Source: Escherichia coli
GTDB taxonomy: Bacteria; Pseudomonadota; Gammaproteobacteria; Enterobacterales; Enterobacteriaceae
NCBI RefSeq assembly: GCF_003334815.1
Contig: NZ_QOWO01000037.1
Reading direction: 5' to 3' (one strand)
Length of the DNA stretch: 37,002 nt
Shown here one piece after another: positions 16,133-22,220 of the stretch. Every line of letters starts with the position of its first letter. Position 1 is the stretch's first letter. A model generated the notes under the pieces. It did no database searches and was not told the DNA's origin. It saw only the letters and a program-made list of their open reading frames with translations. Both the position numbers and the translations under genes were made by a program.

Positions 16133-17023
16133 TTAATACTCGAGAATGCCGTGCGCGACGGGCAAATAGCGCAGAGAGAAATAGAGAGTGTCTTTACCGC
16201 AAGAGGAACGTTTCGCTAACAGCGAGGCAATTTCTGCGTCCGGTTTCGGTTTCGCTGTAAAGGTTTTGCCTTTGCCGGCGACAAAAAGTTCATAAACAAC
16301 GCCGCTGGCAGGGGCGGGACTTTGGCAATCGGCGCTGGCCTGTAAATAACGTTCACGCTGTTCAGCGGTCAGTTTATCCACGCCGCTGCCATCCTGTACC
16401 CAGACATTAACGCCGGTTGCTTTAACGTGTTCCAGCAGTTGGCGATAGCCATCGGGCGACATGTTTCCGGCGAAAAAACTACTGATATAAACCGGTTTTG
16501 CTGAAACATCGCTAATCAGCCGCTGCGCGTTGTTTAACCATGTTAGCAAAGGCTGACGGGCGGCTTCGCTGCGCCAGTTCAGGTCGTCAATTTCCGCGCT
16601 GATGTACCAGCCATCCGGCGTTATGCCAGGCGCGGCGCTCCATAATCTGGCTTGCTGGAGATCGGCAGCCAGCAGGCGATTAAGATAGCTTTCCAGCGCT
16701 GCGGACGACTGTTTCTGGTGCATAAAAAATTCCGGATCGGCGTTCAGCCCGACAATAAGCTTCAGACCAGCCTGTTGCGCAGCTGCGGCCCGCTTAAACA
16801 ATAACGTGCGCTGTTCTGGCTGGGTAAATGCATCGCCGTAACGGGTCCATTGCAAAACAAGGGTATCGAAGCCTTGCAAACGTAACTGACTCATCAGCCC
16901 CTGCCACTGGGTATCGGTAACCTGACTATCTCGGTTTTGTGGTTGCCAGATAATACCTTTCATCGCAAAGGAAAAAGGGCTGACCAAAAGCAGTGTCAGC
17001 AATACGAAAATGAACTTACGCAT
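16133..17023 (-). CDS. ybcH: secreted DUF4434-family protein, third gene of the nfrB-nfrA-ybcH operon
   Basis: 296-aa ORF with signal peptide MRKFIFVLLTLLLVSPFSFA; its start codon abuts the nfrA stop. Confidence 0.8.
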   Translation of the reverse strand: MRKFIFVLLTLLLVSPFSFAMKGIIWQPQNRDSQVTDTQWQGLMSQLRLQGFDTLVLQWTRYGDAFTQPEQRTLLFKRAAAAQQAGLKLIVGLNADPEFFMHQKQSSAALESYLNRLLAADLQQARLWSAAPGITPDGWYISAEIDDLNWRSEAARQPLLTWLNNAQRLISDVSAKPVYISSFFAGNMSPDGYRQLLEHVKATGVNVWVQDGSGVDKLTAEQRERYLQASADCQSPAPASGVVYELFVAGKGKTFTAKPKPDAEIASLLAKRSSCGKDTLYFSLRYLPVAHGILEY

Positions 17024-19996: not shown

Positions 19997-22220
19997 TTTC
20001 GGACTCCAGTTGCGCAACCTGTTCTGTGTTTAAACCTGCTTTGAGTAATAGTGATTGCATCGAAACTTGTAATTCGCGTTGAATTGTCAGGACGCGATCC
20101 AACGTTTCCTGGCTGATAACGCCTTCGGTGACCAAAAACTTGCCGAGCGGCAGAGAACTGCGTTCATGGCGCAATAACAACACGTTAATTGCTGAACGAT
20201 TAATATGACCGAGCGTGGTCAGTATTTCGGCGAACAGGAACTGATGCGGCACATATTGCCGCCAGATTTCACCGGCCTGCTGTTCCGTGAGCCACTGATG
20301 CTGAACCGCATTGTACAACATTGCCCGCGGATCGTGACCGCGTCGGCGTGCATACCAGTGACGTAACCCTGTGACAATTTGTCCCCGCAGAACAATGACG
20401 TAACGCACTTTGCGTCCGACTTTACGCGTCAGGGCCGCCAGCGAAACCGGGTCAATACCATCTTCACTGCCGACAATTAACTCGTCATTTTCCAGACGCA
20501 GCGGCAGTACCGCATAATGCAGCGCCACGGAGGCCGGCATTTCGGCAATCAGCGAGGAAGGGATCTGCCAGGCATCGATGGATTCCCACGCCACGCCGTT
20601 TTGCTCTGCCAGCGCCTGTGCCAGCTGCTCGGCGCTAATCAGCCCCTGCATCAGCATTGAACCGCCCAGGCGTAGACCTTCGACGCGATTACGCAGTGCT
20701 GTATCGAGTTGTTCTTCAGTGATGACCTGATTTTCCAGCAGAATTTGACCTAACGGGCGCAACGAGCGGGTATCGCCAGTCACGCTGGGGAAGTCATGCG
20801 TTGTTTTATCCCACGCCACGCGACGTGGATCGCCGTGTTGAAGTACCTGTTTTAGCGCGCGCCAGTTGGCCATGAAGTTAATCAGGTTGCCCCAGAAAAG
20901 ACGCAGGACGGAAAGCAGCCCCTGCGTCAGGCCGTAGTAGCCAGTAACGAAAATCACCCGCTGCACGATGCGGTTAACCATCAAACCAAAGTTTAGCCAC
21001 AGCAGGGTCATTAACCATGCGCTGCCGCTGAAAATAGAAAGGAAATGCCAGGCATCGGGCCACAAACTTTCATACGCCAGCAACAGCAAAAGCTGGATCA
21101 TCACCAGCATCGCGAGGAAGCTGACAAAGTTACTGATTGCCCCTTTGCGGTCGCGCCAGAGAAAGTAGTTCAGCGTCAGGCTGGAGGTCCATTTATGGGT
21201 TTTAAAGCCTTGGAAAACAATGCTGATGATCCAGCGGGATTTTTGTCGAACCGCAGTCGAAAAGGTATCGGGGAAATATTCGCGCACGCAGATCATGTTT
21301 GATGTCCGCGCGTGCTGTAAAAATTTACGCTGCTCGCGTTCTTTGGCTTCGTCCACCACCGGAAAACGGACAAAAATTTCCGTCATACCTTTTTCTTTCA
21401 GGCGGAAGCCAATGTCGTAATCTTCAGTAAGACTCTGCACGTCGAAAGCAATACCGTCACCGTCAGCTAACAGTGCGGTCACGGCGCGGCGGCTGAAACA
21501 GGTGCCGACGCCTGCGCTGGGCACTTGTCCGGCGAGGGCTTCACGCACCGGAACATCTTTGCCATGCAGCTCTGAAAACTCATCAATGTAAGTCATGCTG
21601 GTGAAGTGCGTCCATTCGCGTTCGAACGGATACACCGGGATCTGAATCAGATCTTTACGCTCGACCAGATAGTTGAACAGACGCAATTCCATCGGTGAAA
21701 TCACATCTTCGGCGTCATGCAGAATAAAACCAGCAAAAGCGAAATTGGCGCTACGCTCAAATTGGGTGATGGCGTCCAGCACGTTGTTCAGACAGTCGGC
21801 TTTGCTGGTGGGGCCAGGACGCGCGCAGACTACCTTATGCACATTCGGGAAGCGAGCGCACACTTCGTCAACATCACGCTGAGTATCGGGGTCGTTGGGG
21901 TAGGTGCCAACAAAGATATGATAGTTTTCGTAGTCGAGCGTGGTCGCCGCCAGCTCGGCCATATTGCCGATGACGCCCGTTTCATTCCACGCCGGAACCA
22001 TAATCGCTAACGGTTTTTCATCTGGTTTATACAGTTCGCGGTAACTCATTCGCGGGTAGCGGCGATAAACACTCAACTTGCGTTTAATGCGGCGTACCCA
22101 GTAGACGACATTAATAAAAAAATCGTCCAGCCCGCTGATGAACATGATGACCGCTAACGTTATCGCGATTACTTTTAAGCCGTAGAGCCAGGTAGCAAAA
22201 ACATCAAGAAGCCAGTCCAC
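19983..22220 (-). CDS. nfrB: inner-membrane family-2 glycosyltransferase with C-terminal MshEN-like c-di-GMP-binding domain (NfrB)
   Basis: 745-aa ORF; N-terminal TM helix; acidic HDAEDV and QKSRW (QxxRW) processive GT2 motifs; C-terminal LRLGGSMLMQGLISAEQLAQALAEQ and LGKFLVTEGVISQETLDRVL resemble MshEN motifs; overlaps nfrA by 14 nt. Confidence 0.88.
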   Translation of the reverse strand: MDWLLDVFATWLYGLKVIAITLAVIMFISGLDDFFINVVYWVRRIKRKLSVYRRYPRMSYRELYKPDEKPLAIMVPAWNETGVIGNMAELAATTLDYENYHIFVGTYPNDPDTQRDVDEVCARFPNVHKVVCARPGPTSKADCLNNVLDAITQFERSANFAFAGFILHDAEDVISPMELRLFNYLVERKDLIQIPVYPFEREWTHFTSMTYIDEFSELHGKDVPVREALAGQVPSAGVGTCFSRRAVTALLADGDGIAFDVQSLTEDYDIGFRLKEKGMTEIFVRFPVVDEAKEREQRKFLQHARTSNMICVREYFPDTFSTAVRQKSRWIISIVFQGFKTHKWTSSLTLNYFLWRDRKGAISNFVSFLAMLVMIQLLLLLAYESLWPDAWHFLSIFSGSAWLMTLLWLNFGLMVNRIVQRVIFVTGYYGLTQGLLSVLRLFWGNLINFMANWRALKQVLQHGDPRRVAWDKTTHDFPSVTGDTRSLRPLGQILLENQVITEEQLDTALRNRVEGLRLGGSMLMQGLISAEQLAQALAEQNGVAWESIDAWQIPSSLIAEMPASVALHYAVLPLRLENDELIVGSEDGIDPVSLAALTRKVGRKVRYVIVLRGQIVTGLRHWYARRRGHDPRAMLYNAVQHQWLTEQQAGEIWRQYVPHQFLFAEILTTLGHINRSAINVLLLRHERSSLPLGKFLVTEGVISQETLDRVLTIQRELQVSMQSLLLKAGLNTEQVAQLESENEGE

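What the first reader, a model, noticed from the sequence alone, without database searches (positions are those of the whole stretch)
16133..22220. nfrB-nfrA-ybcH: overlapping three-gene glycan synthesis and export module
The three genes are tightly coupled: nfrB and nfrA overlap by 14 nt, and the nfrA stop abuts the ybcH start. NfrB shows an N-terminal TM helix, GT2 signatures (HDAEDV, QKSRW) and a C-terminal MshEN-like motif pair, consistent with a c-di-GMP-gated processive glycosyltransferase. NfrA has a signal peptide, TPR region and a barrel C-terminus ending ...GVHW. YbcH is a secreted DUF4434 protein. This is the architecture of a synthase-dependent exopolysaccharide secretion system, and the products are known as phage N4 adsorption factors. 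It is the most system-like locus in the window but is described, not novel. The biochemical role of YbcH and the native signal that activates the system are the parts still worth work.
Basis: partly seen in the sequence, partly recalled or inferred. Interest (0 to 1): 0.45.

Follow-up and report, generated by a model that had tools for sequence, protein, structure and literature searches.

The report
Known E. coli nfrB-nfrA-ybcH operon
This is the well-described E. coli nfrB-nfrA-ybcH operon, a c-di-GMP-switched machine that makes and exports a surface sugar polymer used by phage N4 as its receptor; it is ordinary apart from a rare NfrB allele changed at two positions that never vary in the family.

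Summary
Three minus-strand genes lie at the stated coordinates: nfrB 19983-22220, nfrA 17024-19996 and ybcH 16133-17023. Every domain claim holds: GT2 plus MshEN, TPR plus NfrA_C, and DUF4434. The interpretation matches two 2021 mBio papers, so the system is already known.

Four smaller points emerged.
1. This NfrB differs from K-12 by D37N and G333S. These are the only two differences in about 8 kb. Both sit at positions invariant in about 119 diverse homologues. The allele is rare, so altered or lost function is plausible but untested.
3. NfrB carries a second MshE-type c-di-GMP motif pair at residues 665-714. The two 2021 papers do not mention it.
4. My NfrA barrel model has 12 strands, not the published 16.

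The parts
19983..22220 (-). nfrB: inner-membrane c-di-GMP-activated family-2 glycosyltransferase, 745 aa, GTG start
   Evidence: ORF; NCBIfam NF008411 at 1326 bits against a 1170 cut-off; Pfam GT2 plus MshEN; same limits in RefSeq
22113..22199 (-). NfrB N-terminal transmembrane segment (about residues 8-36), running into the invariant juxtamembrane motif S29, D32, D33, D37
   Evidence: Kyte-Doolittle peak of 2.07 at residues 18-36; column counts in 119 homologues
22110..22112 (-). Codon 37, AAT (Asn) where K-12 has GAT (Asp); the SNP is at window 22112
   Evidence: D in 118/118 homologues; the 61-nt context is exact in 2 of 5426 complete genomes
21075..22013 (-). NfrB GT2 catalytic domain (residues 70-382), with HDAED at 168, TED at 265 and QKSRW at 326
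   Evidence: Pfam PF13641 and PF13632; motif positions; hhalign places TED and QxxRWxxG on E. coli BcsA and PgaC
21222..21224 (-). Codon 333, AGC (Ser) where K-12 has GGC (Gly); the SNP is at window 21224. This is the Gly of QxxRWxxG
   Evidence: G in 119/119 homologues; the column aligns with the Gly of BcsA QRIRWARG and PgaC QRLRWAQG; the context is exact in 1 of 5426 complete genomes
20601..20756 (-). First MshE-type c-di-GMP motif pair (residues 489-540), including L490, G491 and L537, which were tested experimentally in K-12
   Evidence: NF053729 at 52-66 bits against a 38 cut-off; residues present; mutational data in PMC8669469 and PMC8669472; PDB relatives PilF, PilB and MshE
20079..20228 (-). 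Second MshE-type motif pair (residues 665-714). It is partly degenerate in E. coli, which has F663-A664 where most homologues have L-G
   Evidence: NF053729 at 45 bits against a 38 cut-off on the fragment 600-745 alone; conserved in 25 MshEN-bearing homologues, Q714 in 25/25; not mentioned in either 2021 paper
19983..19996 (-). 14-nt nfrB/nfrA overlap, suggesting translational coupling
   Evidence: the same 14-nt overlap occurs in a 63%-identical homologous locus, L003; also noted in PMC8669469
17024..19996 (-). nfrA: outer-membrane TPR plus beta-barrel export protein and N4 receptor, 990 aa
   Evidence: NCBIfam NF007302 at 1889 bits against a 1223 cut-off; Pfam TPR plus NfrA_C; protein identical to K-12
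19916..19996 (-). NfrA signal peptide (residues 1-27, ...STSALA|DN)
   Evidence: Read from the sequence; a classical signal sequence according to PMC8669469
17027..17776 (-). NfrA C-terminal beta-barrel (residues 741-990), 12 strands in the model, ending in GVHW
16133..17023 (-). ybcH: periplasmic DUF4434 protein, 296 aa, predicted glycoside-hydrolase-like (beta/alpha)8 barrel
16592..16594 (-). YbcH Glu144 codon: invariant Glu near the C-terminal end of strand 4, the candidate acid/base
   Evidence: Invariant in 62 sequences; strand 138-146 in the model; aligned with GWYISGEIS of PDB 4h41
16289..16291 (-). YbcH Glu245 codon: invariant Glu at the C-terminal end of strand 7, the candidate nucleophile
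   Evidence: Invariant in 62 sequences; strand 241-245 in the model
22221..22369 (-). cusS-nfrB intergenic region holding the operon's promoter and leader; identical to K-12
   Evidence: Sequence; no SNP against K-12; no sigma-70 or sigma-28 consensus match found here; promoter activity shown by an nfrB::lacZ fusion in PMC8669469

Best explanation
The region is the E. coli nfrB-nfrA-ybcH operon, a synthase-dependent exopolysaccharide system.

How it works:
- NfrB sits in the inner membrane. Its cytoplasmic GT2 domain polymerises a sugar, most likely from UDP-ManNAc supplied by WecB, once c-di-GMP made locally by DgcJ binds its C-terminal MshEN region.
- The chain crosses the periplasm under the TPR array of NfrA and leaves through NfrA's C-terminal beta-barrel.
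- YbcH is most likely a periplasmic glycoside hydrolase that trims or clears the polymer, as BcsZ and the PgaB C-terminal domain do in their systems.
- The surface polymer is the first receptor of phage N4 and of other WecB-dependent coliphages. NfrA is the second, irreversible receptor.

What is shown and what is inferred:
- Shown in the literature for K-12: c-di-GMP binding, the need for the GT and MshEN residues, the DgcJ and WecB dependence, and the auxiliary role of YbcH.
- Shown here: gene structure, domains, conserved synteny, the YbcH fold with its catalytic-type Glu pair, and a second MshE-type motif pair.
- Inferred: the polymer's chemistry, YbcH catalysis, and the effect of the two substitutions D37N and G333S. 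Because those positions are invariant, I expect the substitutions to weaken or change NfrB activity in this lineage.
For: Identity: 100% DNA match with RefSeq-annotated nfrB, nfrA and ybcH. All three NCBIfam equivalogs score above their cut-offs. Pfam domains agree.

Mechanism: PMC8669469 and PMC8669472.

Synteny: DUF4434 lies beside an NfrB-like GT2 and an NfrA_C/TPR protein in five of the seven loci fetched around YbcH homologues (L003, L006, L007, L008, L009). These homologues are 27-47% identical to YbcH. Three of those loci also carry a WecB-like epimerase and two a GGDEF-EAL gene. L005 shows only an uncharacterised upstream gene cut by the contig end, and the short L004 shows only an epimerase.

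Allele: D37N and G333S are the only differences from K-12 between window 15099 and 23116. Both columns are invariant in 118-119 homologues of 40-78% identity, while only 54 of the first 500 positions are invariant. The exact protein was seen on 9-16 contigs, against at least 1000 for the K-12 allele. A phage-selected missense at another invariant position (residue 357) occurred in a resistant mutant whose sensitivity was restored by wild-type nfrB (PMC12548472).
Against: Nothing contradicts the identity of the locus. The open points are these:
- The polymer has never been chemically defined in the papers held.
- YbcH is dispensable for N4 plating and was called a scaffold, so catalysis is not required for export.
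- Foldseek matches for YbcH were weak, with TM 0.4-0.55.
- The GT profile finds no solved structure by sequence, and hhalign to BcsA has only 22% probability.
- Gly to Ser and Asp to Asn are conservative changes, and the allele has persisted in several independent assemblies, so it may be tolerated.
- No sigma-28 promoter consensus was found upstream, although regulation by FliA is reported.
Confidence: 0.93

Rival explanations
1. The operon is present, but this allele of NfrB is non-functional or strongly weakened, a natural phage-escape allele. The strain would then make little or no N4 glycan receptor and would resist N4-like and other NGR-dependent phages.
For: Two derived non-synonymous changes and no synonymous ones in about 8 kb that is otherwise identical to K-12. 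Both fall on strictly invariant family columns; the chance for two random residues is about 0.005-0.012. G333 is the Gly of QxxRWxxG, shared with BcsA and PgaC. nfrB is often disrupted in natural E. coli: T6SS-gene fusions remove residues 1-54, and a 75-aa in-frame deletion removes the first c-di-GMP motif pair. PMC8669472 also reports insertions, deletions and stop codons. A phage-selected missense at invariant residue 357 is on record.
Against: Both changes are chemically mild. From memory, other processive GT2 enzymes such as hyaluronan synthase and NodC carry Ser at the position after QxxRWxx; I did not test this here. The reading frame, nfrA, ybcH and the promoter region are intact and identical to K-12. 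The probability argument is post hoc. There are no phenotype data for this lineage.
Confidence: 0.5
2. YbcH is a non-catalytic periplasmic scaffold or polymer-binding protein. It keeps a hydrolase-like fold but does not cleave anything.
For: PMC8669469 proposes a scaffold. Deleting ybcH leaves N4 plating intact and only partly relieves the motility defect. Droplet RB-TnSeq gives it only a partial contribution. The usual Asn-Glu acid/base dipeptide of clan GH-A is not evident; the motif is P-x-E-I-D-D.
Confidence: 0.3
3. The older model: NfrA and NfrB are simply protein receptors for N4 in the outer and inner membranes, and no polysaccharide is involved.
For: This was the original genetic interpretation of the nfr mutants. 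It survives in names such as 'bacteriophage adsorption protein'.
Against: GT active-site mutants D169A, D267A and W330A keep normal protein levels but abolish plating. WecB is required, but the rest of the ECA pathway is not (PMC8669469; PMC8669472). The GT2 signature is conserved across the family.
Confidence: 0.03

Closest known systems
E. coli K-12 NfrB-NfrA-YbcH (Nfr / N4 glycan receptor system; Junkermeier & Hengge 2021, Sellner et al. 2021)
   Same: Same operon and same gene limits. NfrA and YbcH are identical in sequence, and the promoter region is identical. NfrB is identical at 743 of 745 residues.
   Different: NfrB carries D37N and G333S at family-invariant positions. The neighbourhood also differs: the DLP12 prophage with appY and ompT is absent, so argU is followed directly by envY.
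Bcs cellulose system (BcsA/BcsB/BcsZ/BcsC)
   Same: An inner-membrane processive GT2 with the TED and QxxRWxxG motifs, aligned by hhalign. Activation by c-di-GMP. A periplasmic hydrolase. An outer-membrane protein built from a TPR array and a beta-barrel.
   Different: The c-di-GMP receptor is MshEN-type rather than PilZ, and is present as two motif pairs. There is no BcsB-like subunit in the operon. The barrel has 12 strands in my model rather than 16. The GT domain is so diverged that profile-to-sequence search against the PDB finds nothing.
Pga poly-GlcNAc system (PgaC/PgaD/PgaB/PgaA)
   Different: In Pga, c-di-GMP binds at the PgaC-PgaD interface (general knowledge). The Nfr operon has no deacetylase. 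YbcH is a stand-alone DUF4434 protein. The presumed sugar is ManNAc, not GlcNAc.
MshE / PilF / PilB N-terminal MshEN domains
   Same: The NfrB C-terminal region matches them directly: PDB PilF at 5.7e-17 and MshE 5htl at 2.4e-5. The key Leu and Gly residues are present. Repeated MshEN modules also occur in PilF, which matched in 3 stretches.
   Different: Here the module controls a glycosyltransferase, not a secretion or pilus ATPase.
BT_0435 (PDB 4h41), Bacteroides thetaiotaomicron 'putative alpha-L-fucosidase'
   Different: Only 15% identical, with no assigned function of its own. It comes from a different phylum; I did not examine its genomic context.

Membership tests
NfrB (NCBIfam NF008411, cyclic di-GMP-activated glycosyltransferase) | Full-length match above the curated equivalog cut-off | tested here: met
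   1326 bits against a cut-off of 1170, covering residues 7-728 of the protein and profile positions 1-722 of 723
NfrB (NCBIfam NF008411, cyclic di-GMP-activated glycosyltransferase) | Processive GT2 active-site signatures DxD, TED and QxxRW | tested here: met
   HDAED at 168, TED at 265 and QKSRW at 326. D169, E171, D172, T265, E266, D267, Q326, R329 and W330 are invariant in 119 homologues and intact here
NfrB (NCBIfam NF008411, cyclic di-GMP-activated glycosyltransferase) | All family-invariant residues retained | tested here: not met
   N37 replaces D (118/118) and S333 replaces G (119/119). This does not remove the protein from the family, but it marks an atypical allele
MshEN c-di-GMP-binding domain | Tandem 24-residue motifs with conserved Leu and Gly | tested here: met
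   NF053729 at 66 bits against a cut-off of 38 over residues 489-540. Pfam MshEN at 9e-14. L490, G491 and L537 are present. A second copy at 665-714 scores 45 bits
MshEN c-di-GMP-binding domain | Binds c-di-GMP | not testable with these tools
   Shown for K-12 NfrB 414-745, with a Kd of about 1 uM (PMC8669469). That region is identical here
NfrA (NCBIfam NF007302; Pfam NfrA_C) | Full-length equivalog match and the NfrA_C domain | tested here: met
   1889 bits against a cut-off of 1223. PF13283 at 9.7e-68 over residues 809-977. Identical to K-12 NfrA
Synthase-dependent exopolysaccharide secretion systems (Bcs/Pga/Alg/Pel type) | Inner-membrane processive GT2 synthase regulated by c-di-GMP | tested here: met
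   experimental support in PMC8669469
Synthase-dependent exopolysaccharide secretion systems (Bcs/Pga/Alg/Pel type) | Outer-membrane exporter with a periplasmic TPR array and a C-terminal beta-barrel | tested here: met
   TPR hits. The AF2 model shows helical repeats up to residue 738 and then a beta-barrel. The barrel has 12 strands in the model, and its nearest solved folds are 12-stranded barrels, not PgaA, BcsC or AlgE
Synthase-dependent exopolysaccharide secretion systems (Bcs/Pga/Alg/Pel type) | Accessory periplasmic glycoside hydrolase or lyase encoded in the operon | tested here: inconclusive
   YbcH has the fold and a conserved Glu pair, but activity has not been tested
Synthase-dependent exopolysaccharide secretion systems (Bcs/Pga/Alg/Pel type) | A secreted polymer product | not testable with these tools
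   Inferred in the literature from motility and phage phenotypes and from the WecB requirement. No chemical structure was found in the papers held
DUF4434 (PF14488) | Pfam and NCBIfam match | tested here: met
   PF14488 at 1.8e-69 over residues 21-291. NF007404 at 520 bits against a cut-off of 344
Clan GH-A-like glycoside hydrolases | (beta/alpha)8 barrel fold | tested here: met
Clan GH-A-like glycoside hydrolases | Catalytic Glu at the ends of strands 4 and 7 | tested here: met
   E144 (strand 138-146) and E245 (strand 241-245) are invariant in 62 sequences. The Asn that usually precedes the acid/base Glu is absent
Clan GH-A-like glycoside hydrolases | Hydrolytic activity on a glycan | not testable with these tools
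   No biochemical data in the papers held

The most novel reading that the evidence does not exclude
YbcH, and with it DUF4434, is a catalytically active retaining glycoside hydrolase of a family not yet classified. It cleaves the ManNAc-type Nfr polymer using E144 and E245, and so sets chain length or release of the phage receptor.

On this reading the Nfr system is a structurally distinct class of synthase-dependent exporter, with two MshEN modules on the synthase and a 12-stranded rather than 16-stranded pore.

The rare D37N/G333S NfrB allele seen here would be a naturally selected phage-escape or re-tuned variant.
Probability: 0.35. Interest if true: 0.45.

Novelty: already known. Interest (0 to 1): 0.22.

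Why it matters
The system itself matters because it decides whether E. coli is sensitive to N4-like and several other coliphages, and because it is a textbook case of local c-di-GMP signalling. All of that is already published.

This window adds only leads:
- A rare natural allele changed at two invariant NfrB positions. It could be used to probe residues that nobody has mutated.
- A concrete, testable catalytic hypothesis for YbcH/DUF4434.
- A second c-di-GMP-type motif pair. It might explain why single MshEN mutations only partly block function.
- A pore model that disagrees with the published strand count.

Tried and rejected
1. A homologue search with E. coli NfrB returned only E. coli variants. 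I reached diverse homologues instead through YbcH representatives and their contigs and through a search seeded with a 46%-identical homologue.

2. A sequence or profile search of the GT domain against the PDB found nothing, even at E <= 10. I used hhalign to E. coli BcsA and PgaC instead.

4. A sigma-28 consensus scan (TAAA-N14-16-GCCGATAA, up to 3 mismatches) upstream of nfrB found nothing. The sigma-70 scan found no site in the intergenic region and no excess overall. The reported FliA dependence therefore cannot be tied to a recognisable promoter here.

5. An apparent nfrA truncation to 910 aa in assembly GCA_900450225.1, which carries the same NfrB allele, is a CCC to CCCC homopolymer difference. 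I treat it as a likely long-read assembly error.

6. I first read the long NfrB forms as C-terminal fusions. Checking showed that they are N-terminal replacements.

7. Rfam finds no RNA family inside the operon. The plus-strand ORFs inside nfrA and nfrB are not annotated in RefSeq and were not pursued.

No NfrB model was made, so the spatial position of residues 37 and 333 is unknown.
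Full report
**Observation**

The window is E. coli chromosome. Bases 16133-22220 match 5244 of 5426 complete E. coli genomes, 5049 of them over at least 80% of the length. RefSeq annotates the matched stretch as ybcH, nfrA and nfrB. All three genes lie on the minus strand:
- nfrB 19983..22220, GTG start, 745 aa
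- nfrA 17024..19996, ATG start, 990 aa
- ybcH 16133..17023, 296 aa

nfrB and nfrA overlap by 14 nt, and the nfrA TAA is followed immediately by the ybcH ATG. The gene limits equal those in RefSeq for strain 52F4 and for K-12 MG1655. The window is 3 mismatches away from the calf isolate 52F4 over 36.9 kb.

**Domains**

- NfrB passes the NCBIfam NfrB equivalog at 1326 bits against a cut-off of 1170. It has Pfam GT2 domains at residues 70-382 and MshEN at 542-628. It also has the MshE-type c-di-GMP motif at 489-540.
- HDAED (168), TED (265) and QKSRW (326) are present, as are L490, G491 and L537.
- A hydrophobic N-terminal segment (about residues 8-36) and a strong transmembrane segment at 365-383 are visible.
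- NfrA passes its equivalog at 1889 bits against 1223 and has TPR hits plus NfrA_C at 809-977.
- YbcH is DUF4434 over residues 21-291.

The only solved relatives detectable by sequence are PilF, PilB and MshE for the MshEN part of NfrB and generic TPR proteins for NfrA. YbcH has none.

**What is known**

Two 2021 mBio papers describe exactly this system.

PMC8669469 reports the following:
- NfrB 414-745 binds c-di-GMP with a Kd of about 1 uM.
- D169A, D267A and W330A abolish N4 plating, and MshEN mutations reduce it.
- DgcJ interacts with NfrB and activates it specifically.
- WecB is needed, but not the rest of the ECA pathway.
- The operon can impede motility.
- ybcH is dispensable for plating and only partly needed for the motility effect.

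PMC8669472 reaches the same model. It names the product the N4 glycan receptor and shows that several other coliphages depend on it. It also notes that some E. coli carry insertions, deletions or stop codons in nfrB.

**Synteny**

I fetched seven loci around YbcH homologues that are 27-47% identical to YbcH.
- In five of them (L003, L006, L007, L008, L009), DUF4434 lies next to an NfrB-like GT2 and an NfrA_C/TPR protein.
- Three loci (L007, L008, L009) add a WecB-like epimerase, and two (L003, L009) a GGDEF-EAL gene.
- In L003 the 14-nt overlap is also conserved.
- L005 shows only an upstream gene cut by the contig end, with no Pfam record.
- The short contig L004 shows only an epimerase near ybcH.

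This agrees with the phylogenetic survey in PMC8669469.

**New point 1: a rare NfrB allele**

NfrA and YbcH are identical to K-12, but NfrB has D37N and G333S.
- From window 15099 to 23116 these are the only two differences from K-12. Beyond 23117, inside cusS, 44 differences follow in 2 kb, so a recombination boundary lies there.
- In 119 diverse NfrB-family proteins (40-78% identical in the GT region), D37 is D in 118 of 118 and G333 is G in 119 of 119. They are as invariant as the catalytic residues.
- Only 54 of the first 500 positions are strictly invariant. Two random residues would both fall on invariant positions with a probability of about 0.005-0.012. This is a post hoc figure.
- hhalign places G333 on the Gly of QRIRWARG in E. 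coli BcsA and of QRLRWAQG in PgaC.
- The 61-nt context of G333S is exact in 1 of 5426 complete genomes, and that of D37N in 2.
- The exact protein occurs on 9-16 contigs, against at least 1000 for the K-12 allele. These contigs come from independent assemblies, so the allele is not a sequencing error.
- A phage-selected missense at another invariant position (residue 357) is on record in a resistant mutant that wild-type nfrB re-sensitised (PMC12548472).

I infer that this allele probably alters or weakens NfrB (about 0.5). Both changes are mild, and no phenotype is available.

**New point 2: YbcH**

A 62-sequence alignment gives seven invariant residues, among them E144 and E245. The AF2 model (pLDDT 95.9) is a (beta/alpha)8 barrel. 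E144 lies near the end of strand 4, and E245 at the end of strand 7. This is the catalytic arrangement of clan GH-A hydrolases; that point is established knowledge of the clan.

The DUF4434 profile finds only 4h41 in the PDB, with the GWY-x-x-E-I motif conserved. Foldseek was weak. No paper held assigns a function to DUF4434 or to YbcH beyond 'scaffold' or 'partial contributor'. I therefore propose that YbcH is the system's periplasmic hydrolase (about 0.6).

**New point 3: a second c-di-GMP-type motif**

The fragment 600-745 alone matches NF053729 above its cut-off (45 bits against 38), at residues 665-714. The pattern is conserved in 25 MshEN-bearing homologues. E. coli has F663-A664 where most homologues have L-G. 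Neither 2021 paper mentions it; PMC8669472 calls the rest of the C-terminus a domain of unknown function.

**New point 4: the pore**

**Verdict**

This is a real, correctly read and already described system. Interest is low. The allele, YbcH, the second motif pair and the pore model are leads for follow-up, not findings.

Noticed in passing
window 15067-15188 (tRNA-Arg argU at 15067-15140, then envY at 15189-15950): argU is intact and followed directly by envY. Colinearity with K-12 begins inside the 3' part of the tRNA, at window 15099. This strain therefore has the empty attachment site, and it lacks the DLP12 prophage with appY and ompT that K-12 carries there.
   Followed up: partly
window 23117-25035 (5' part of cusS, cusR, start of cusC): There is a sharp change in divergence from K-12: 2 differences between 15099 and 23116, then 44 differences in the next 1.9 kb. 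This looks like a recombination boundary inside cusS. The CusS and CusC proteins have different RefSeq accessions from those of K-12.
   Followed up: partly
related proteins P0193, P0208, P0170 (not in the window): In many natural E. coli the first 40-54 residues of NfrB are replaced by PAAR/DUF6531 or VgrG-like sequence. That stretch includes the transmembrane segment and the invariant D32/D33/D37 motif. P0193 alone was seen on 527 contigs. A type VI secretion element therefore appears to sit at the 5' end of nfrB in those strains.
   Followed up: partly
related proteins P0238, P0240, P0235 (not in the window): A 670-aa NfrB form is common, seen on 330, 233 and 104 contigs. It joins residues 1-470 to about 546-745. 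This in-frame deletion removes exactly the first c-di-GMP motif pair.
   Followed up: partly
window 20079-20228 (NfrB residues 665-714): A second MshE-type c-di-GMP motif pair scores above the NCBIfam cut-off and is conserved in homologues. It is partly degenerate in E. coli and is not discussed in the two 2021 papers.
   Followed up: yes
locus L012 (GCA_900450225.1), about position 7863, inside nfrA: An assembly carrying the same NfrB allele has nfrA called as 910 aa, because of an extra C in a CCC run. This is probably a long-read homopolymer error rather than a real frameshift.
   Followed up: partly
loci L007 5832-7295 and L008 11051-12466: Some NfrB-family synthases are only 471-487 aa long and lack the MshEN region. 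They still sit next to NfrA-like, DUF4434 and WecB-like genes, and L008 has a different gene order. c-di-GMP control is therefore an optional add-on in this family.
   Followed up: no
window 36606-36761 and onward to 37002: There is a sok antitoxin RNA (Rfam RF01794, 84 bits) with hokE, followed at the window end by the start of an IS4-like IS421 transposase, as annotated in strain 52F4.
   Followed up: no
window 8549-14189 (annotated in 52F4 as fimA, fimC, sfmD, fimH, sfmF) and fimZ at 14192-14824: The sfm fimbrial operon and fimZ lie upstream of argU. RefSeq names several of these genes as if they were type 1 fim genes. The mechanical ORF for fimZ (231 aa) is longer than the annotated gene.
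   Followed up: no
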